A stretch of DNA of 64,000 nt from Peptococcaceae bacterium. Lineage in GTDB: Bacteria > Bacillota > Peptococcia > Peptococcales > BICA1-8. The position numbers and the translations under genes were made by a program. Position 1 is the first letter of the stretch. Each line of letters opens with the position of its first letter. The stretch covers positions 168,542-232,541 of the forward strand of contig JBMNCQ010000055.1 of assembly GCA_049366715.1 (NCBI GenBank), in the 5' to 3' direction. The notes under the pieces are model-generated. The model saw only the letters and a program-made list of their open reading frames with translations, was not told the origin of the DNA and made no database searches. Of this stretch, positions 24,397 through 63,946 are shown piece after piece.

Positions 24397-25926
24397 CTAG
24401 ATCCTTCTTCGAAAAGGAAATTGAGGATATGGTTTCCGGCTTTTCATTTCTAATTCTTTAAGGTTTTTCACAAGTGCTTTGTTTTCATCTTCTTTTTCCA
24501 TAAATTTATTTCTCAGCTGATTATTTGTGGCTTTTACTACCTCCAGGCTCTGCCTCAGCTTCAGAACTTCTTCCGTTAAATTTTGCAGTTTCTCAACTTC
24601 CTGTTGCAGCTGTTTTTTTTGGTCCTGCTCCTTTTGCAGAGCCTGCTGCAAATTGTCAATTTCCAGAGCCTGTAAAGCTTCCTTTTCTTGCAGAACATTA
24701 ACCTGGTGCGTTTTTTTACTATTTTCCTCTTCCAGCCTGCTTATTAAGCTATTTAGCCCGGCAATTTTTTCTTCCCGGGACCTGTCATTAACCCTATTCC
24801 TTGCAGAAGATTGCCCGAAATTTTTATAATATTTGATCACTTTCCGCCTTTCCCGGCTTAATGGCGGGTTGACTTCCTCCCCGGACTGCTGACCGGCAGC
24901 ATCCTTCAGCAATAAGAATACCGCCGTACTATCCGGCTCTAGCGCCGCTAAATCAATCCCCGGATATTGATCAATATCCAAAGCTAACCGTTTAGCAAAA
25001 TATTTTACCGGCATGAATTGTGTTGTTAACTGCCGGGCGGCCGCGTACTTGTGGATATACTCATTCTCCTGCCAGAAAATTTCTATTTCCGCACCGTTCA
25101 GATAAATAAGAGGTGATAAAGAGACACCTTCTTTAGATGATATGCACTGTTCTTTGAGCCAGCCGGAATTAAGCCAGACTCCTTTCGTTTTGAACTTCCG
25201 GGTATACATGACTCTGGCATTCATATGCTCCAGCCGCAGCCAGGTGATATGCAGATTACCCTCTTGGTCAAAGAGGGCCGCAGGATTAATATTGATACCT
25301 TGTGAAGATGTTATGACACTTTTTAAGCCCCACTGGCTCTCTTTACCCATCCGGTAAACTAACTGGTACTTTCCTTTCTGATAAATCTGGTAGATGAGAT
25401 AAAGGACATCTCCCTGCGTAACGGCAGCACACCCTCCCGGTCCGTTTCCCCAGCCTTTATCAATAACAAAAGAGTCCTGCCACAGCCCATCTCTTTTAAA
25501 ACAGCACCGGATCTTCCACTCTTTCGTCTGGAAATTTTCCGTAATAATGATTACATACATCTTGTCCCCACTAAAACCTATTTTTTGAAAAGTAATCTTA
25601 TCCCTTTTTTCCAGCCCGATATTAATTATTTCAGGAGAATCTTCGCCCAAAGAATGACATATGATCTGCTCCAGATGATTTTTATAACTAATATAGAAAT
25701 GATTAGCAGGACTTACCCCCATCGTAAATAAACCTGAAAAATCTTTTCTTAGCTCCCGGAAACGGCTTTCTCCAGGATAATAAATATAAAAAGAACCGTC
25801 CTCCACCTTTAGTGTCCATTCTTGCCCGAGTCCTATAATCTCCAGTTGATTAGAGCCAAAAAGACCGTAATTTTCCTCCATTTCAGCACCACCTAAATAA
25901 TTAAACTCCCATTGTATCTTATTCAA
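24397..25926 (-). CDS. hypothetical 509-aa protein: beta-rich N-terminal region plus about 130-aa C-terminal coiled coil
   Basis: C-terminus LQEKEALQALEIDNLQQALQKEQDQKKQLQQEVEKLQNLTEEVLKLRQSLE...; no enzymatic motif. Confidence 0.6.
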   Translation of the reverse strand: MNKIQWEFNYLGGAEMEENYGLFGSNQLEIIGLGQEWTLKVEDGSFYIYYPGESRFRELRKDFSGLFTMGVSPANHFYISYKNHLEQIICHSLGEDSPEIINIGLEKRDKITFQKIGFSGDKMYVIIITENFQTKEWKIRCCFKRDGLWQDSFVIDKGWGNGPGGCAAVTQGDVLYLIYQIYQKGKYQLVYRMGKESQWGLKSVITSSQGININPAALFDQEGNLHITWLRLEHMNARVMYTRKFKTKGVWLNSGWLKEQCISSKEGVSLSPLIYLNGAEIEIFWQENEYIHKYAAARQLTTQFMPVKYFAKRLALDIDQYPGIDLAALEPDSTAVFLLLKDAAGQQSGEEVNPPLSRERRKVIKYYKNFGQSSARNRVNDRSREEKIAGLNSLISRLEEENSKKTHQVNVLQEKEALQALEIDNLQQALQKEQDQKKQLQQEVEKLQNLTEEVLKLRQSLEVVKATNNQLRNKFMEKEDENKALVKNLKELEMKSRKPYPQFPFRRRI

Positions 25927-57632: not shown

Positions 57633-58914
57633 ATATTTCACCTTTTTCCATGATTATTTTTCCTGCTTTAATGGTCATTACCGGCCACCCTTTTAGTTCC
57701 CACCCGTCATAGGGATTATTTTTCCCCAGGGAGAAAAACTCTTTCGTATTCACTTTTTGCGTGAGACCGGGATCAATAATCGTGATATCTGCCGTTTTGC
57801 CTTTTTTTAAAGTGCCTCGGTCCAAGCCTAAGATCTGAGCCGGTAGTGTACTCATTGCTTTTACCAGCTGCAGGAGACTAAGGTGTCCCTGCAGATACAG
57901 CTTATCCCACACCAGCGGTACGGCAGTTTCCAAACCACTAATGCCGAAAGGTGCATATTCATATTCAACCTCTTTCTCTTCTGCCGCATGGGGTGCATGA
58001 TCCGTAACGATACAGTCTATTGTTCCGTCCCGGAGGGCTTCAATTAATGCCTGGACATCATCCTGAGTTCTTAAAGGGGGATTTACTTTCGTACTGGTGT
58101 TATACCCGATTACCGCTTCATGATTCAGGGTTAGATGATGGGGGGTAGCCTCTGCCGTAACCTTCACGCCTCTGGCTTTAGCCCGGCGGATGATTTCCAC
58201 ACCGCCGCGGGTCGTGACATGGGCAATATGAATTCTGCTTTTGGTCAATTCAGCTAAACGAACGTCCCGGTCAATAATGATCTCTTCTGCTTCTTTCGGG
58301 ATCCCTGCTAAACCCAGTCCGGTACTGACCAGTCCTTCATTCATCACACCTGCGCCTACCAGATCATCATCCTCACAGTGGCTTATCACTAATAAATTCA
58401 GCATTTTAGCATAATCTAACGCCCGGCGCAGGACACCGGAGTTTTTTACTGTTTTTCCGTCATCAGATAAAGCGGCCGCCCCATGTTCCTGCAAAATTGC
58501 AAATTCGGCAATTTCTTTACCTTCCTGGCCTTTCGTGATACTTGCGATGGGATATACATTAACCAGATCATAGCTTTTCGCCCTGGCCCGGATCAATTCC
58601 AGAACTCCTTCGGTATCTGCCACGGGCTGGGTATTAGGCATACAGGCAATTCCGGTAAATCCTCCCCGGGCAGCCGCCCTGCAGCCGGTAAGAATCGTTT
58701 CTTTATGCTCCTGCCCGGGCTCTCTTAGATGAACATGGATATCGATCAACCCGGGAACAACTACTTTATTAACCCCGTCAATCATTTTCGCCTCTGCAGA
58801 AAGAGGTAAATCTTTGGCAATCTCCTTAATCACTCCATCTTCTACCCTAATATCCAATTGCTCGCAAATATTCTGACTGGGATCAACAACCAGACCATTC
58901 TTAATCAGTAACAT
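57625..58914 (-). CDS. pyrC: dihydroorotase
   Basis: Start set at [12 protein letters not shown] (GGGGGGAGG 8 nt upstream); [10 protein letters not shown] metal-binding motif; overlaps the pyrB stop. Confidence 0.95.
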
Positions 58915-59836
58915 TAACTCTGCCTCCCCCCATGGCATAAAGTAGTGCCATTCTCACTGCCACACCATTTGTGACCTGTTCTTCAATTACCGATTGACAG
59001 CTTTCGGCCACTTCACCCGTTATTTCAATTCCTCTATTCATTGGTCCGGGATGCATGACTAAAGCATCCTCCCGGGCCAGCCTTAATTTAGATTTATTTA
59101 ATCCATACAGCTTGGCATACTCCCTTACCGAAGGAAAGAGACCTTTCTTTTGCCGTTCTAATTGTATCCTGAGCATTATAACAACGTCTGCATCCTGCAG
59201 AGCCTTCTCCATATCCCAGGTAACGGTAACACCAAGTTGTTCCACTTGTGAAGGCAGCAGCGTCGGCGGACCGCAAACCCAGACATCCCCCCCGAGGAGG
59301 TTCAAGCCGATAATATTGGAACGGGCTACTCTACTGTGCAGCACATCGCCGATAATGGCAATTTTTCTACCTTCAATACTGCCTTTACGTTCAAGAATCG
59401 TATACATATCCAGAAGCCCTTGGGTAGGATGTTCATGGGTTCCGTCCCCGGCATTAATTACCCGGGCTTTAACAGCTTTGGCCAAAATATGATGGGCCCC
59501 GCTGGACGGATGACGCATTACAACAACATCAGCGCCCATGCTGTCAATGGTTTTAGCCGTATCCCGCAAGCTCTCTCCTTTCGCCACACTACTTGAGCCG
59601 GCCGCGATATTAATCACATCCGCACCCATATATTTTCCTGCCAGTTCAAAAGAAGTCCGGGTCCGGGTACTGTTTTCATAAAACAGGTTAATTACGGCTC
59701 TCCCCCTCAAAGTAGGTACTTTTTTTATTTCCCTGCCGATAATTTCTTTCATAGACTTGGTATTGATAAATATTTCCTTAATTTCTTGCACGGTTAAATC
59801 GGACAGGCTAAGCAAATTCTTACTGGCAATACCCAC
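58901..59836 (-). CDS. pyrB: aspartate carbamoyltransferase catalytic subunit (GTG start)
   Basis: 311 aa; [23 protein letters not shown]. Confidence 0.95.
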
Positions 59837-60048: not shown

Positions 60049-60170
60049 CGGCAAGTTTTTTGAGCAGATGTATCACTCAAAGTATTCCCTAAGAAACAGA
60101 TCCTAATAGTTTCACATTGCGCTGCTTCCGGATAAGCAATTGGTTTATTGCCCTATTTAAGTCTGATCTA

Positions 60171-60297
60171 TAAAAAGCCGGGTCTGTTCGACCCGGCAAG
60201 TTTCCTAAAAATAAGCTGCAGGTGACAGCAGAACTTACTACTCTACGATCAGTCACCAACACTGTCCTTGCCGGCCTCTCCGGACCGATTTAAAGGC
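60171..60297 (-). promoter_or_regulatory. PyrR-type transcription attenuator 1 (binding loop, antiterminator, terminator)
   Basis: Minus-strand RNA: CCUUUAAAUCGGUCCGGAGAGGCCGGCAAGGACAG (60263-60297) resembles the PyrR binding-loop consensus (UCCAGAGAGGCU...CAAGG). CCGGCAAG can pair with CUUGCCGG of the terminator GCCGGGUC-GAACA-GACCCGGC-UUUUUA (60171-60197). Confidence 0.7.
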
Positions 60298-60380
60298 TCC
60301 TTTATTTATTTGTCTACATCTCTAAGCTCTCGTTTATTTATTGCTCTACAGCTCCAAGCTGTTATTCTGTAGTATTTATA

Positions 60381-60530
60381 TAAAAAACCGGGTCTTTTCG
60401 ACCCGGCAAGTATATTAAGCAATACGAATGATAGCAGAATGAACTTATCCTTATGCTGGCAGCCACTGATTAACAAGTCGTAACCGTCACTGCTGTCCTT
60501 GCCGGCCTCTCCGGACCGATTTAAAGGCTT
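60381..60530 (-). promoter_or_regulatory. PyrR-type transcription attenuator 2 (distal tandem copy)
   Basis: Same architecture: GCCUUUAAAUCGGUCCGGAGAGGCCGGCAAGGACAG (60494-60530) and terminator CUUGCCGGGUC-GAAAA-GACCCGG-UUUUUUA (60381-60410). The 35-nt binding-loop segment is identical to attenuator 1. Confidence 0.7.
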
Positions 60531-60739
60531 ATTATTTATTTATTTCATTATATCCTTAGCAAAAGATAAAGACAAGCTATTTTACTAAAAATCATATTAT
60601 TGCTATAATATTTCTCTGAGGTTACTTTTTTGGTCAGGAGTTCTCTTTCTGGCTACTTTGCCGGTCAGTTTGTCTGCCCGGTAAGCTTCGCCACTGGCTA
60701 ACCTGACCAACCCATGAGAAAAGAATAGAGGAGATTATT

Positions 60740-61474: not shown

Positions 61475-62869
61475 TCAAATTCCGTATTTTTTTTTCTTGC
61501 GGACGAGTGTCGAAACATCTATCCCTAGCTGAGCAGCCGTATTCCTCAAGGGTCCGCAAACGGTCAAGGCCTTTTTTATCACTTCATATTCTACCTGTTC
61601 CAGGATTTTTTTCAGCTCAAAGGATTCATAATAATCAGGAGTAGAAATATACTGGGTATGATCAGCAGACTGTTTAATGAAATGGGGAACACATACTTCA
61701 TCAATCATATTACCTTCTGCCAGCACGACCATTCTTTCTAAGACATTTTTGAGCTCCCGCACATTTCCGGGCCAGTTATAATTCACTAAAAGCTCCACAA
61801 CCTGGGGACTTATTTTTTTATTAAATCCAAATTTGTCATTTTTCATTTTAATAAAATGAACGATCAGAGGAACGATATCCTCTTTTCGTTCCCTGAGAGG
61901 GGGAATAAAAATAGGAATGACATTTAAACGGTAATATAAATCCTGTCTGAATTTGTTATCTTTAATGAGTTTTTCCAAATCGTTGTTGGTAGCGGCAATA
62001 ATTCTGGTATTAATCGTAACTGTTTTTGTACCCCCGACCCTATACATCTTGTTATACTGCAAAACATCCAGGAGCTTAACCTGGGTTTCTTTAGTTATTT
62101 CACCAATTTCATCTAAAAACAGAGTTCCTCCGTTTGCCAATTCGAACATACCCCGCTTACCACTTTTGGAGGCCCCGGTAAATGCCCCCGGTTCATAGCC
62201 GAATAGTTCAGACTCCAGTAATGATTCCGGAATAGCGCTGCAGTTAATATGGATAAAGGGCCGCTGACGGGAAGAACCTCCGGCATCATGGATATACCTG
62301 GCGATCAGATCCTTACCGACACCCGATTCCCCCTGAATAAGCACAGGTGAACTCACATGAGATATCCGCACAGCAAGACGCAGAATATTTTGTACGACCG
62401 GACTATTGGCTACGATAATATTTTCCCGGTAATCCCGCTTCATCTTCCACAGCAGCTGCCTGTATTCATTATTGAGAGCATTTGTGCTTTTCAGCTTTTC
62501 TTGCAGATTAAGCAGTTCCGTAATATCCCGGACATTGGAAAAAATCCTGACTAAACATCCTTCATCATCAAATATCGGAATACTGGTGACAAGGGCCGAT
62601 ACCCCATTATAATAGTCAATTACCTTCGTAACAGGCTTCCGGGTCTTGGCCACTTCCGGAGAACAGGCATCAGGAATTTCCCTGTTTCTAATCAGACTTC
62701 GCATATCATAGCCGATAACTTTGTCTTTACATAACCCTGAGATGCGCAAATATGCCTCATTACAATAGATTGCCTTTCCCTGACAATCAGTAATAAAAAT
62801 CCCGTCATATGAGGCATCAATTATCTTTTGCAGCAACTCATTTTCGACTTTTAACTGCTTGCAATTCAT
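61475..62869 (-). CDS. sigma54-dependent transcriptional activator (PAS, AAA+, Fis-type HTH)
   Basis: 464 aa; Walker A GESGVGKD, sigma54-contact loop EPGAFTGA, Walker B LFLDEIGE, C-terminal HTH NTAAQLGIDVSTLVRK. Confidence 0.9.
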   Translation of the reverse strand: MNCKQLKVENELLQKIIDASYDGIFITDCQGKAIYCNEAYLRISGLCKDKVIGYDMRSLIRNREIPDACSPEVAKTRKPVTKVIDYYNGVSALVTSIPIFDDEGCLVRIFSNVRDITELLNLQEKLKSTNALNNEYRQLLWKMKRDYRENIIVANSPVVQNILRLAVRISHVSSPVLIQGESGVGKDLIARYIHDAGGSSRQRPFIHINCSAIPESLLESELFGYEPGAFTGASKSGKRGMFELANGGTLFLDEIGEITKETQVKLLDVLQYNKMYRVGGTKTVTINTRIIAATNNDLEKLIKDNKFRQDLYYRLNVIPIFIPPLRERKEDIVPLIVHFIKMKNDKFGFNKKISPQVVELLVNYNWPGNVRELKNVLERMVVLAEGNMIDEVCVPHFIKQSADHTQYISTPDYYESFELKKILEQVEYEVIKKALTVCGPLRNTAAQLGIDVSTLVRKKKKYGI

Positions 62870-62883
62870 ATATATACCCCCAC

Positions 62884-62927
62884 ATATGCACTAATGCATA
62901 CAATTATATGCATTAGTGCATACAATT
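62884..62927. promoter_or_regulatory. tandem 22-bp repeat with palindromic cores: candidate enhancer (UAS) / operator for the sigma54 activator
   Basis: ATATGCACTAATGCATACAATT | ATATGCATTAGTGCATACAATT. The cores ATGCACTAATGCAT and ATGCATTAGTGCAT are reverse complements. They sit 15 nt upstream of the activator ATG and about 110-150 nt upstream of the -24/-12 promoter. Confidence 0.5.
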
Positions 62928-63034
62928 CCTCCAGCAGCAACGGAAAATAAATAATTATTACAAAAATTTTTCCCTTTTTTTTCACTACTAACCCCGCTCC
63001 GGACTATACTAATATCCCTTGTGAAAGCTATAGC

Positions 63035-63050
63035 CGGCATGCATCTTGCA
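63035..63050 (+). promoter_or_regulatory. sigma54 (-24/-12) promoter candidate
   Basis: CGGCATGCATCTTGCA versus consensus TGGCACG-N4-TTGCW: GG and GC are exactly 12 nt apart and the TTGCA is complete. Confidence 0.6.
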
Positions 63051-63201
63051 TTAACTATATGTGTATTCACTAAATTCTGTGCAGTCCTGTCGGATAATCG
63101 GTAAACTAAATTCCTGTTCAATCCTAAAAGACCTTTTATGTCTCTTTAGCTGACAGGTTGAGTTTACCGAGCCTGCGCAGAAGAATAGGAGGTGAAGCTT
63201 G

Positions 63202-63321
63202 ATGCTAAACATCCAAGCAGCGCATGACCTGGTAAGGACAACGAAATTCAGATACCTGCAAAATCTTTACCGGATGTTATCGAAAAAAGCGACAAAAGCT
63301 GCGGATTATAAGCAAAGCTGA
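63202..63321 (+). CDS. 39-codon ORF downstream of the sigma54 promoter (micro-protein or part of an sRNA)
   Basis: MLNIQAAHDLVRTTKFRYLQNLYRMLSKKATKAADYKQS; TAGGAGGTGA RBS 7 nt upstream; followed by the 20-bp hairpin terminator. Confidence 0.4.
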   Translation: MLNIQAAHDLVRTTKFRYLQNLYRMLSKKATKAADYKQS

Positions 63322-63334
63322 CCATACCCATGAT

Positions 63335-63377
63335 CCAACCTAAGAAAGACCTGCTGCGCAGGTCTTTTTTAGGTTGG
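63335..63377. terminator. bidirectional terminator (20-bp stem)
   Basis: CCAACCTAAGAAAGACCTGC-TGC-GCAGGTCTTTTTTAGGTTGG between convergent transcription units. Confidence 0.85.
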
Positions 63378-63418
63378 ATGCTAAAAGTTCCTGAATACAC
63401 GAAATAACCCCGCACCGG

Positions 63419-63946
63419 TTAACGATATCCTCCGACATTAGGACCAAAAGGATAACCATAGCCCTCTTGTGATCCTGCAAGTATCCAGTATACAGCAATT
63501 GCTGCACCCTCACCGATCAAATCCTGACAGAATTTACCCTGTTCCCTGCTATGCCATTGAAAATCCTTTACCAGCTGACCACAATTTACTTCACCGAATT
63601 TTTCCTGAAAAGTTTTTGGTATTTGATTAAACAACCTGTATACACCCTGTTCGCCGTTAAGCTGTTCAATTCTATCTGCAATTTTTTCCCCGGCCAGTGG
63701 ATTGGTGCGCCCATGAACGCTGCTTACCGCTAAAATCGCCCCGCTTAAAGCACCGCAGTTGTTTCCGGACAGCCCGATCCCTCCGCCAAACCCGGTTGCT
63801 AAAGCAATTACTGAAGGCGGTAAATCTGACAAGCCTAAATCCAACACTGCTTTCAATACACATTCCGCACAATTCATCCCTGTTTTAAAATAATCCCGGG
63901 CCTTCTCCCTGGCCGCCTTAATCAGTTCTTCATTATTTCTCTTCAT
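63419..63946 (-). CDS. C_GCAxxG_C_C-family redox-active protein
   Basis: 175 aa; GMNCAECV..., GNNCGALSGA, CGQLV, FCQDL Cys pattern of this family. Confidence 0.75.
   Translation of the reverse strand: MKRNNEELIKAAREKARDYFKTGMNCAECVLKAVLDLGLSDLPPSVIALATGFGGGIGLSGNNCGALSGAILAVSSVHGRTNPLAGEKIADRIEQLNGEQGVYRLFNQIPKTFQEKFGEVNCGQLVKDFQWHSREQGKFCQDLIGEGAAIAVYWILAGSQEGYGYPFGPNVGGYR

What the first reader, a model, noticed from the sequence alone, without database searches (positions are those of the whole stretch)
62884..63377. Sigma54 activator with an upstream tandem palindrome and a divergent -24/-12 promoter that drives only a 39-codon ORF or sRNA
The divergent region next to the PAS-AAA+ enhancer-binding protein gene (61475..62869) contains three elements:
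- Two 22-bp direct repeats whose 14-bp cores are mutual reverse complements (62884-62927).
- About 110 bp further on, CGGCATGCATCTTGCA, a near-consensus sigma54 promoter with correct GG-N10-GC spacing.
- About 140 nt further, a 39-codon ORF with a strong RBS (63202..63321), followed by a 20-bp-stem terminator.

The next gene is convergent. The apparent target of this dedicated activator is therefore a transcript of about 300 nt encoding at most a micro-protein. That is atypical, because such activators usually control catabolic operons.
Basis: partly seen in the sequence, partly recalled or inferred. Interest (0 to 1): 0.65.

Follow-up and report, generated by a model that had tools for sequence, protein, structure and literature searches.

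The report
Sigma-54 activator driving small structured RNA
A sensor-type sigma-54 activator gene sits next to its own binding sites and a divergent sigma-54 promoter whose only product is a roughly 310-base transcript; the conserved part of that transcript is a previously undescribed folded RNA domain, shared with related anaerobic spore-forming bacteria, and not the 39-codon reading frame.

Summary
These are two 22-bp repeats, a 10/11 match to the sigma-54 promoter consensus, a 39/40-codon ORF with an AGGAGG ribosome-binding site, and a 22-bp-arm bidirectional terminator followed by a convergent gene.

Within this window the promoter match alone is no better than chance. Comparison with other loci makes it convincing. 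The activator (PAS, AAA+, HTH) belongs to a tight family of about 100 protein clusters from Peptococcaceae and Negativicutes. In 22 of 25 related loci a TGGCAY-N5-TTGCA promoter diverges from the activator gene. In all 9 related loci with gene tables that carry the promoter, the next gene is convergent.

The conserved product is a three-way-junction RNA of about 108 nt at the 5' end of the transcript (window 63075-63182). It shows compensatory base changes and matches no Rfam family. Most relatives also encode a 55-74-aa three-helix protein with no Pfam family.

The window's ORF does not belong to that protein family and has no homolog among 1.84 billion representative proteins.

The best reading is a sigma-54/activator-controlled small structured RNA, a known kind of circuit (LuxO-Qrr, GlrR-GlmY) with a new RNA, in Bacillota. 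How the RNA acts (in trans or as a leader) is unresolved.

The parts
61475..62869 (-). Sigma-54 enhancer-binding protein, 464 aa: PAS sensor, AAA+ domain with GAFTGA loop, C-terminal Fis-type HTH
   Evidence: Pfam PF00158 (2.8e-65), PF25601, PF13426, PF02954. GAFTGA at residue 228. The closest NCBIfam model is PrdR, at 424.9 bits against a cut-off of 795. The ortholog family is 55-68% identical.
62884..62905 (.). Upstream activator site, copy 1 (ATATGCACTAATGCATACAATT)
   Evidence: The TGCA-N4-TGCATA motif is conserved in the same position and orientation in orthologous loci and enriched about 70-fold. It lies 15-36 nt upstream of the activator's start codon.
62906..62927 (.). Upstream activator site, copy 2 (ATATGCATTAGTGCATACAATT), 22 bp (two helical turns) from copy 1
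63035..63050 (+). Sigma-54 (-24/-12) promoter CGGCATGCATCTTGCA. The inferred transcription start is about 63060-63062.
   Evidence: Matches 10 of 11 consensus positions. An equivalent promoter is present in 22 of 25 orthologous loci. The start site is inferred from the usual spacing and was not measured.
63075..63182 (+). Conserved three-way-junction RNA domain. P1 is 63075-63084 with 63173-63182. P2 is a hairpin at 63085-63094. P3 is 63098-63106 (TCGGTAAAC) with 63162-63170 (GTTTACCGA), with an inner stem at 63113-63117 with 63153-63157.
   Evidence: The minimum-free-energy fold contains these stems. The same architecture is recovered in 14 of 16 sequences: the window plus 13 of 15 related loci. 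P3 shows compensatory changes. The complementarity of the P1 flanks gives a Fisher combined p of 4e-8. A covariance model built without the window places its two best window hits here. No Rfam family matches.
63187..63192 (+). Shine-Dalgarno AGGAGG. In the predicted fold it is partly paired with the 5' end of the transcript (63067-63073), extending P1.
63202..63321 (+). 39-codon ORF (40 codons from TTG 63199), an orphan. Whether it is translated is unknown.
   Evidence: No Pfam or NCBIfam match. It is not a member of the small-protein family of relatives. No credible homolog among 1.84 billion representative proteins.
63333..63379 (.). Bidirectional intrinsic terminator: 22-nt arms, with a GACCTGC/GCAGGTC core followed by T6 on the + strand
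   Evidence: One search did not list it.
63419..63946 (-). Convergent C_GCAxxG_C_C family gene. It bounds the unit and is not part of it.

Best explanation
**Proposed mechanism.** The PAS-domain sigma-54 activator binds as oligomers to the two tandem 22-bp TGCA-N4-TGCATAC sites, which lie immediately upstream of its own start codon. From there, about 110-150 bp away, it activates the divergent -24/-12 promoter at 63035-63050. The product is a monocistronic transcript of about 310 nt that ends at the bidirectional terminator at 63333-63379.

**The conserved product.** The conserved output is the 108-nt three-way-junction RNA domain at the 5' end of the transcript (63075-63182). I think this RNA is the regulatory output of the sensor. 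It most likely acts as a small regulatory RNA by binding a protein or another RNA. The 39-codon ORF is a lineage-specific passenger. It sits where relatives encode a 55-74-aa three-helix protein.

**Shown:**
- All sequence elements are present.
- The activator family, its sites, the promoter and the short-transcript layout are conserved.
- The RNA fold is conserved, with covariation.
- The ORF has no homologs.

**Inferred:**
- Binding of the activator to the repeats.
- Sigma-54 dependence of the promoter.
- The transcript ends.
- Negative autoregulation of the activator, because its sites lie in its own leader.
- That the RNA acts in trans.
For: **Conserved module**
- The activator family is sharply bounded at 537-705 bits, then drops to 493 bits.
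- A divergent TGGCAY-N5-TTGCA is present in 22 of 25 orthologous loci.
- The TGC[AG]-N3-5-[TC]GC[AC]TA motif occurs at 4.8 per kb between gene and promoter against 0.066 per kb in 1.07 Mb of background. In the window it occurs only in the two repeats.
- The next gene is convergent in the window and in all 9 related loci that have gene tables and carry the promoter.

**RNA domain**
- The P3 5' strand CGGYAAAY begins 48-66 nt after the promoter in 17 sequences (the window and 16 related loci). Its complement follows 54-72 nt later.
- Compensatory variants are seen: CGGCAAAC/GTTTGCCG, CGGTAAAC/GTTTACCG, CGGTAAGT/ACTTACCG and CGAC/GTCG.
- On a MAFFT alignment, 84% of cells are paired against 22-58% when the partner is slid, and 4 of 8 pairs show double changes.
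- P1 and P2 are kept with unrelated sequences in different lineages. The flank-complementarity test gives p<=0.05 in 11 of 16 sequences, with a Fisher combined p of 4e-8.
- The promoter strand folds better than the opposite strand by a mean of 5.6 kcal/mol (Wilcoxon p = 0.012).
- A covariance model built from 7 other loci puts its two best hits in the 64-kb window at 63074-63192 (E = 0.0023 and 0.025).

**RNA rather than ORF as the payload**
- The RNA stands alone, without an ORF, in L001 and L168.
- In six 'group B' loci the RNA has its own sigma-54 promoter. In L169 the small protein has a separate sigma-54 promoter on the other side of the activator gene.
- The window ORF has no homolog.
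Against: - There are no transcript, binding or rpoN data. Only 64 kb of this genome is visible, and no rpoN was found among the large ORFs checked.
- The covariance-model hit in the window is modest, and it scores higher on the wrong strand because P3 is symmetric.
- The window's own domain has only one G-U pair and folds equally well on both strands. Its P2 is only 3 bp.
- The alignments were anchored by hand on P3. P1 and P2 were read from predicted folds rather than from an independent structural alignment.
- The ORF has a strong, well-spaced ribosome-binding site, so a micro-protein product cannot be dismissed.
- When an ORF is present, the RNA always lies 5' of it, which also fits a cis-acting leader.
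- Three orthologous loci (Acetonema L002, L090, L163) lack the promoter, so the activator family probably has other targets.
Confidence: 0.62

Rival explanations
1. The RNA domain is a cis-acting leader (a riboswitch-like or protein-operated translational or termination control element). The real product in this genome is the 39-aa micro-protein. The activator supplies transcription and the leader gates translation.
For: - When an ORF is present, the domain always lies directly 5' of it.
- The window ORF has AGGAGG 9 nt before the ATG.
- In the predicted fold that ribosome-binding site is partly paired with 63067-63073 as an extension of P1.
- In L004 the 3' strand of P1 can alternatively pair into a terminator-like hairpin (sequence; my reading).
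Against: - The domain exists without any ORF in L001, L168 and the six group-B loci. In L169 the small protein has its own promoter and a short leader without the domain.
- P1 is 16-19 bp long in several lineages, which suggests a stable stem rather than a switching one.
- The window ORF has no homolog anywhere.
Confidence: 0.25
2. The module is decaying in this genome. The ancestral small-protein gene has been lost or replaced, and what remains (promoter, RNA domain, chance ORF) no longer has a function.
For: - No copy of the small-protein family exists in any frame of the 64-kb window.
- Some relatives have clearly lost parts: in Acetonema L002 the -24 GG has become GT and no RNA follows, and L163 has no promoter.
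- A 14-nt direct repeat brackets the unit (D2), which hints at rearrangement.
Against: - In the window the promoter, both activator sites, all three helices and a strong terminator are intact.
- P3 is a perfect 9-bp helix and P1 a 10-bp helix.
- The RNA-only state recurs in independent lineages, with compensatory changes (L168 against L165). This indicates selection on the RNA alone.
Confidence: 0.08
3. The inverted repeats in the 'RNA domain' are DNA-level protein-binding sites, for example further sites for the activator or another regulator, and not RNA helices.
For: - The P3 arms are a symmetric inverted repeat. Symmetric half-site changes would mimic covariation.
- The covariance model scores the window site on both strands.
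Against: - There are 17 G-U/U-G cells in P3 across the sequences. The promoter strand folds better than the opposite strand.
- The arm spacing varies from 54 to 72 nt.
- P1 and P2 keep their pairing with unrelated sequences in different lineages. A shared DNA-binding protein would not tolerate this.
Confidence: 0.04
4. Chance: the promoter-like hexadecamer and the repeats have no function.
For: One-mismatch promoter matches occur at the chance rate in this window.
Against: The promoter, the sites and the downstream RNA are conserved in position and orientation across 22 of 25 orthologous loci from different families of bacteria.
Confidence: 0.01

Closest known systems
LuxO-Qrr small RNAs of Vibrio (sigma-54 activator whose direct targets are small RNA genes; qrr1 lies next to luxO)
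   Same: A sigma-54 enhancer-binding protein whose output is a short, terminated, non-operonic transcript encoded beside the activator gene. Sources: PMC4878744 and PMC11407668 for the circuit; the adjacency of qrr1 is from my own knowledge.
   Different: - LuxO is a phosphorylated response regulator, whereas this activator has a PAS sensor domain and no receiver.
- Qrr RNAs are Hfq-dependent base-pairing RNAs of about 100 nt with four stem-loops, not a three-way junction.
- No Rfam Qrr match was found.
- The phylum is different (Bacillota).
GlrK/GlrR-GlmY (and GlmZ in some species) of Enterobacteriaceae
   Same: A sigma-54 promoter with upstream activator sites drives a small structured RNA. 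The RNA gene lies next to the activator operon, and GlmY acts by sequestering a protein (PMC3045617).
   Different: GlrR is a response regulator. There is no sequence or structure match by Rfam. No small ORF is involved.
CbrB-CrcZ/CrcY of Pseudomonas
   Same: A sigma-54 activator with an adjacent small RNA gene as a main direct target. The RNA sequesters a protein (PMC8871633, PMC6296734).
   Different: CrcZ is about 400 nt long with repeated A-rich motifs. CbrB also controls many other genes.
Non-coding RNAs in the sigma-54 regulome of Desulfovibrio vulgaris Hildenborough
   Same: Comparative genomics assigned 4 ncRNAs to enhancer-binding-protein regulons in an anaerobe (PMC4641369).
   Different: The phylum is different and the RNAs are unrelated as far as Rfam shows. 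I did not compare them directly.
PrdR, the closest named activator model (NF041552; proline reductase regulator of Clostridia)
   Same: The PAS, AAA+ and HTH portion aligns over residues 8-463.
   Different: The score of 424.9 is far below the family cut-off of 795. The N-terminal 130 residues of PrdR are absent, and no prd genes are nearby. It is not a PrdR.

Membership tests
Bacterial enhancer-binding protein (sigma-54 activator) | AAA+ sigma-54 interaction domain with a GAFTGA loop | tested here: met
   PF00158 at 2.8e-65, residues 152-320. GAFTGA at residue 228.
Bacterial enhancer-binding protein (sigma-54 activator) | C-terminal DNA-binding HTH and an N-terminal regulatory domain | tested here: met
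   HTH_8 at residues 423-462; PAS_9/PAS_4 at residues 18-119.
Sigma-54 promoter | GG and GC elements 10 nt apart within TGGCAC-N5-TTGCW | tested here: met
   CGGCATGCATCTTGCA matches 10 of 11 positions. The match count alone equals the chance expectation.
Sigma-54 promoter | Conserved in orthologous loci, with activator sites 80-200 bp upstream | tested here: met
   Present in 22 of 25 loci. Sites are enriched about 70-fold.
Sigma-54 promoter | Transcription that depends on rpoN and the activator, with a start about 12 nt after the GC element | not testable with these tools
   This needs RNA mapping in mutants. rpoN is not visible in the 64-kb window.
PrdR (NF041552) | Score above the curated cut-off of 795 bits | tested here: not met
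   424.9 bits.
Known RNA families (Rfam 15, including Qrr, GlmY/GlmZ, CrcZ and riboswitches) | A covariance-model match | tested here: not met
   No hit in 62930-63400 at E<=5. The only hits overlapping the finding's span, at 62856-62925, are far below gathering score (spurious microRNA models on the 22-bp palindromic repeats). No hit in the leaders of 11 related loci at E<=1.
Riboswitch | A conserved structured aptamer in a 5' leader | tested here: met
   A three-way junction with covariation. This feature is necessary but not sufficient.
Riboswitch | An expression platform with mutually exclusive pairing that controls the downstream gene | tested here: inconclusive
   The window's ribosome-binding site is partly paired. 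However, the domain also occurs with no downstream gene.
Riboswitch | Binding of a specific ligand | not testable with these tools
   This needs in-line probing or ITC.
Activator-associated small-protein family (alignments A4 and A7; 55-74 aa; no Pfam family) | Profile match to the N-terminal A..LG.PEEV..NFL.LV motif and the C-terminal L..EY..K motif | tested here: not met
   For the window ORF, hhalign gives a probability of 0.07%. hmmsearch on all frames of the region and of the whole window finds nothing.
New three-way-junction RNA motif (this work) | A P3 base of CGGYAAAY/RTTTRCCG at a fixed distance from a sigma-54 promoter, enclosed by P1 together with a P2 hairpin | tested here: met
   Window: P3 is a perfect 9 bp starting 48 nt after the promoter, P1 is 10 bp and P2 is 3 bp. 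The independent covariance model places its top hits here.
Intrinsic terminator | A G+C-rich stem-loop followed by a U-tract | tested here: met
   GACCTGC-TGC-GCAGGTC followed by TTTTTT. The simple scan did not list it.

The most novel reading that the evidence does not exclude
The three-way-junction RNA is a new class of sigma-54-controlled regulatory RNA in anaerobic spore-forming Bacillota. It would be the direct, and perhaps sole local, output of a PAS-sensing activator. It would act in trans, by sequestering a protein or by pairing with mRNAs. In most lineages it would be partnered with a dedicated three-helix, HTH-like mini-protein. RNA and protein would then form a two-part output module that can be fused into one transcript or split into two sigma-54 units.
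Probability: 0.35. Interest if true: 0.75.

Novelty: new variant of a known kind. Interest (0 to 1): 0.62.

Why it matters
- **Scope of sigma-54 regulons.** In Bacillota these regulons have been reconstructed almost entirely from protein-coding catabolic operons. PMC6615313 and PMC12316311 mention no small RNAs, and PMC7438776 tabulates only coding genes and operons as SigL targets. A conserved activator family whose local target is a small structured RNA, with or without a mini-protein, would add a post-transcriptional layer to sigma-54 signalling in Peptococcaceae and Negativicutes.
- **A new RNA motif.** It would give RNA biologists a new, compact (about 105-125 nt), covarying three-way-junction motif with a defined inducer pathway: a PAS sensor.
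- **Small-protein turnover.** It is a natural test case for how small proteins are gained and lost. The same slot holds a conserved 55-74-aa protein, nothing, or an orphan 39-codon ORF.

Tried and rejected
- **Genome-collection scans.** Both scans for orthologous loci failed. The single-protein query confirmed nothing. The alignment query picked generic AAA+ motifs and returned only paralogs at 43% identity or less.
- **Contig look-ups.** Exact-sequence look-ups of the window's own activator and of P0073 were not on record. The rest of this genome, including rpoN, could therefore not be inspected.
- **Rfam.** No match to the transcript region of the window or to the leaders of 11 related loci. 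The only hits overlapping the finding's span are spurious sub-threshold microRNA models on the 22-bp repeats.
- **Pfam and NCBIfam.** No match for the window ORF. Pfam gave no match for the relatives' small proteins.
- **Is the window ORF a diverged or frameshifted copy of the relatives' small protein?** Rejected.
- **Search of the ORF against 1.84 billion representative proteins.** Only two spurious hits, both in very long proteins (899 and 5908 aa) matched over several short stretches.
- **Structure of the small-protein family.** It is predicted as three helices (pLDDT 79). No PDB fold matched with E<1; there were only weak helix-turn-helix-like local similarities.
- **Full three-way-junction covariance model.** This could not be built because MAFFT does not align P1 and P2 in register. 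I used a model restricted to P3 plus energy-based tests instead. That model did not recover L085/86, L097 or the group-B loci at E<=1.
- **Pseudoknot between 63088-63093 and 63152-63157.** I considered this early and dropped it in favour of the nested inner stem 63113-63117 with 63153-63157, which matches L001 and L168.
- **Antisense regulation of the convergent gene.** Rejected for the window because of the strong terminator.
Full report
**1. The observation**

- The activator gene is at 61475-62869 on the minus strand.
- Fifteen bases upstream of its ATG begin two 22-bp direct repeats, at 62884-62905 and 62906-62927. Their 16-bp cores, TATGCACTAATGCATA and TATGCATTAGTGCATA, are exact reverse complements. 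The pair is therefore both a tandem repeat and a 19-bp palindrome.
- CGGCATGCATCTTGCA lies at 63035-63050 on the plus strand.
- AGGAGG lies at 63187-63192.
- An ATG at 63202 (or TTG at 63199) opens a frame that stops at 63319-63321.
- A hairpin with 22-nt arms lies at 63333-63379. Its core, GACCTGC-TGC-GCAGGTC, is followed by TTTTTT on the plus strand and TTTCTT on the minus strand. It can therefore terminate both this unit and the convergent C_GCAxxG_C_C gene at 63419-63946.
- The simple terminator scan did not list this hairpin, presumably because the stem runs through the T-tract.

The protein has PAS, Sigma54_activat, AAA_lid_14 and HTH_8 domains and a GAFTGA loop. Its closest named model, PrdR, is far below its cut-off.

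**2. Is it more than chance?**

Within the window the promoter match is not significant by itself: 4 one-mismatch matches against 4.2 expected. The repeat core is unique in the window. The argument therefore rests on comparison with other loci.

**3. The activator family and its loci**

A protein search found a sharply bounded family of about 100 clusters. They are 55-68% identical and 458-472 aa long. The score falls from 537 to 493 bits at the family's edge. Members come from Peptococcaceae and Negativicutes, including Acetonema and Selenomonadales MAGs.

I fetched loci by exact-protein look-up. I also ran a metagenome scan with the family-specific PAS region.

The findings in these loci were as follows.
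- In 22 of 25 loci with upstream sequence, a TGGCAY-N5-TTGCA element matching 10-11 of 11 positions points away from the activator gene, 46-220 nt from its start. The exceptions are Acetonema L002 (the -24 GG has become GT), L090 and L163.
- Sites of the form TGC[AG]-N3-5-[TC]GC[AC]TA, always in the same orientation, occur at 4.8 per kb between gene and promoter. The background rate is 0.066 per kb over 1.07 Mb.
- In all 9 related loci that have gene tables and carry the promoter, and in the window itself, the next annotated gene beyond the short unit is convergent. No catabolic operon is ever driven.

**4. What the transcript carries: a small protein in relatives, but not here**

In many loci the promoter is followed, after a leader of about 170-185 nt, by a 55-74-aa ORF with a strong ribosome-binding site. 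Its conserved motifs are an N-terminal A..LG.PEEV..NFL.LV and a C-terminal L..EY..K.

A profile search found 34 protein clusters. All are annotated as hypothetical, none has a Pfam domain, and many sit on the same contigs as activator family members. AlphaFold predicts three helices with a mean pLDDT of 79. No PDB fold matched significantly; there were only weak helix-turn-helix-like local similarities.

The window's ORF is not a member of this family.
- hhalign gives a probability of 0.07%.
- An HMM search of all six frames of the region, and of the whole window, finds nothing.
- A full HMMER pass over 1.84 billion representative proteins gives only two spurious hits, in very long proteins matched over several short stretches.

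**5. What the transcript carries: a conserved RNA domain, present here**

When the leaders are anchored on the promoter, an octamer CGGYAAAY begins 48-66 nt after it in 17 sequences (the window and 16 related loci). Its complement RTTTRCCG follows 54-72 nt later.

The variants are compensatory:
- CGGCAAAC/GTTTGCCG in L001, L165 and L004;
- CGGTAAAC/GTTTACCG in the window, L168 and L170;
- CGGTAAGT/ACTTACCG in L098;
- CGAC/GTCG against CGGC/GCCG in group B.

On an unsupervised MAFFT alignment of 15 sequences, this helix (P3) has 84% of cells paired, against 22-58% when the partner is slid. Four of its 8 pairs show double changes, and 12 of 500 shuffles reach the observed covariation score.

Single-sequence folds give the same architecture in 14 of 16 sequences (the window plus 13 of 15 related loci): an outer stem P1, a hairpin P2, and P3 with inner hairpins. 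P1 has unrelated sequences in different lineages:
- TTCTGTGCAG/CTGCGCAGAA in the window;
- CTTCTTCATC/GATGAAGAAG;
- TGCCT/AGGCA;
- TTTCACGG/CCGTGAAG;
- TTCGCGG/CCGCGAA.

Three further tests support the RNA.
- A non-circular test of complementarity between the 5' and 3' flanks, against shuffled flanks, gives p<=0.05 in 11 of 16 sequences. The Fisher combined p is 4e-8 over 13 lineages.
- The promoter strand folds better than its complement by a mean of 5.6 kcal/mol (11 of 16 sequences; p = 0.012). P3 contains 17 G-U cells. Both points argue for RNA in the promoter's orientation and against DNA palindromes.
- A covariance model built from seven loci without the window puts its two best hits in the 64-kb window at 63074-63192 (E = 0.025 on the plus strand and 0.0023 on the minus strand). 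The double hit reflects the symmetry of P3.

Rfam 15 has no matching family for the transcript region of the window or for the leaders of 11 related loci.

In the window the domain is 63075-63182:
- P1 is 63075-63084 with 63173-63182.
- P2 is 63085-63094.
- P3 is 63098-63106 with 63162-63170.

The whole predicted transcript folds at -115 kcal/mol, with a z-score of -7.8. Much of this comes from the terminator.

**6. RNA or ORF as the output?**

The RNA occurs without any ORF in L001 and L168, where the convergent gene abuts it. L168 differs from its ORF-bearing relative L165 by a compensatory change in P3.

In six 'group B' loci the divergent sigma-54 promoter drives only the RNA. In L169 the small protein sits on the other side of the activator gene, with its own sigma-54 promoter (TGGCACATATAATGCA) and a short leader. 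The two products are therefore separable, and the RNA is the more constant of the two.

This favours an RNA with its own function over a pure leader. A leader role is not excluded, however. In the window the ribosome-binding site is partly paired with 63067-63073 as an extension of P1.

L092/93 and L131 show further variants. L092/93 have a short leader and an unrelated 62-aa ORF. L131 has a different ORF-less transcript of about 235 nt. This reinforces the finding that the family drives small units.

**7. Mechanism (inferred)**

The PAS domain senses an unknown signal. The activator assembles on the two sites, which are 22 bp apart and so on the same face of the helix. It contacts sigma-54 holoenzyme bound at the promoter, whose -24 GG lies about 110-150 bp from the sites. 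Transcription starts near 63061 and ends near 63375.

Because the sites lie 15-58 nt upstream of the activator's own ATG, occupancy probably also represses the activator gene. How the RNA acts is unknown.

**8. Comparison with known systems**

Activator-driven small RNAs are established in Proteobacteria:
- LuxO-Qrr (PMC4878744);
- GlrR-GlmY/GlmZ (PMC3045617);
- CbrB-CrcZ (PMC8871633, PMC6296734).

Four ncRNAs also belong to the Desulfovibrio vulgaris sigma-54 regulome (PMC4641369).

Two papers I read on sigma-54 regulons in Clostridiales and across bacteria mention no small RNAs (PMC6615313, PMC12316311). The C. difficile study's table of SigL-dependent promoters lists only coding genes and operons (PMC7438776). 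A Sporomusa transcriptome paper reports 24 SigL promoters without mentioning small RNAs (PMC12456013).

This locus therefore works like a known kind of circuit. It has a new RNA, a new associated protein family, a sensor-type activator rather than a response regulator, and a different phylum.

**9. Limits**

- There are no experimental data.
- Only 64 kb of the genome is visible. rpoN was not seen, and the source contig could not be retrieved.
- E-values from the covariance model are rough.
- P1 and P2 rest on predicted folds and energy statistics, not on a curated structural alignment.
- The window's own copy has a minimal P2 and shows no strand asymmetry.
- Three orthologous loci lack the promoter, so 'dedicated activator' remains unproven.

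Noticed in passing
window 60170-60300 and 60380-60531 (-): Two tandem PyrR-binding attenuator-like elements lie upstream of pyrB (58901-59836). Their Rfam scores of 38.4 and 36.9 bits are below the gathering score of 54 (E = 0.007 and 0.013). This is ordinary pyr operon control.
   Followed up: no
window 62989-63002 and 63405-63418: A 14-nt direct repeat, TAACCCCGC[T/A]CCGG, matches at 13 of 14 positions. It brackets exactly the promoter, RNA, ORF and terminator unit, with a spacing of 416 bp (D2). I estimate about 0.03 such pairs expected by chance in this 650-bp region. This may be a trace of insertion or recombination of the unit.
   Followed up: partly
L088, L089, L094, L095, L099, L169: about 230 nt downstream of the divergent promoter: A 13-15-bp-arm, nearly perfect palindrome such as GGGCAGTTTTGCATA-N5-TATGCAAAACTGCCC ends the RNA-only transcripts. 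It contains the TGCATA/TATGCA half-sites that are missing between gene and promoter in these loci. It may serve both as a terminator and as a downstream enhancer.
   Followed up: partly
L169 3880-4392: Downstream of the activator gene lies a second sigma-54 promoter, TGGCACATATAATGCA. It has a short leader and a 61-aa member of the small-protein family. It is preceded by a palindrome that contains TGCGTA repeats. The activator is therefore flanked by two sigma-54 units.
   Followed up: partly
L001 6425-11380; L165 3928-6398; L168 3925-6401: In three Peptococcaceae-type loci the ortholog is followed immediately by a second, larger sigma-54 activator (PAS-PAS-AAA+, with N-terminal CBS domains in L001 and L165). 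A CoA-transferase (plus thiolase in L001) operon comes next. This tandem-activator arrangement is absent from the window.
   Followed up: no
L131, upstream of the activator: The divergent sigma-54 promoter TGGCATGTTTCTTGCG drives a different, ORF-less transcript of about 235 nt. It ends in a canonical terminator (GACCGCGCAAGCGGTC followed by T9). It lacks the CGGYAAAY/RTTTRCCG helix.
   Followed up: no
L092 and L093, upstream of the activator: A short leader of about 35 nt is followed by a 62-aa ORF (MVTNMVAASVSGMAADIERRW...). This ORF is unrelated, or only very distantly related, to the small-protein family. No three-way-junction RNA is present.
   Followed up: no
L085 and L086, just after the small ORF: An extra TGCAAAAATGCCTA activator-type site lies downstream of the small ORF. 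Sites therefore flank the unit on both sides.
   Followed up: no
L097 378-436 (+): A SECIS_3 match scores 42.9 bits, below the gathering score of 63 (E = 1.8e-6). In the related locus L172 the neighbouring gene is a molybdopterin oxidoreductase, so a selenoprotein formate-dehydrogenase-type gene is plausible.
   Followed up: no
window 24397-25926 (-): A 509-aa ORF with no Pfam family at E<=1e-5.
   Followed up: no
window 63061-63076 and 63385-63400: A 16-nt inverted repeat (81% complementary) links the first bases of the predicted transcript with the bases just past the terminator (I3). It would matter only on read-through, and it may be chance.
   Followed up: no
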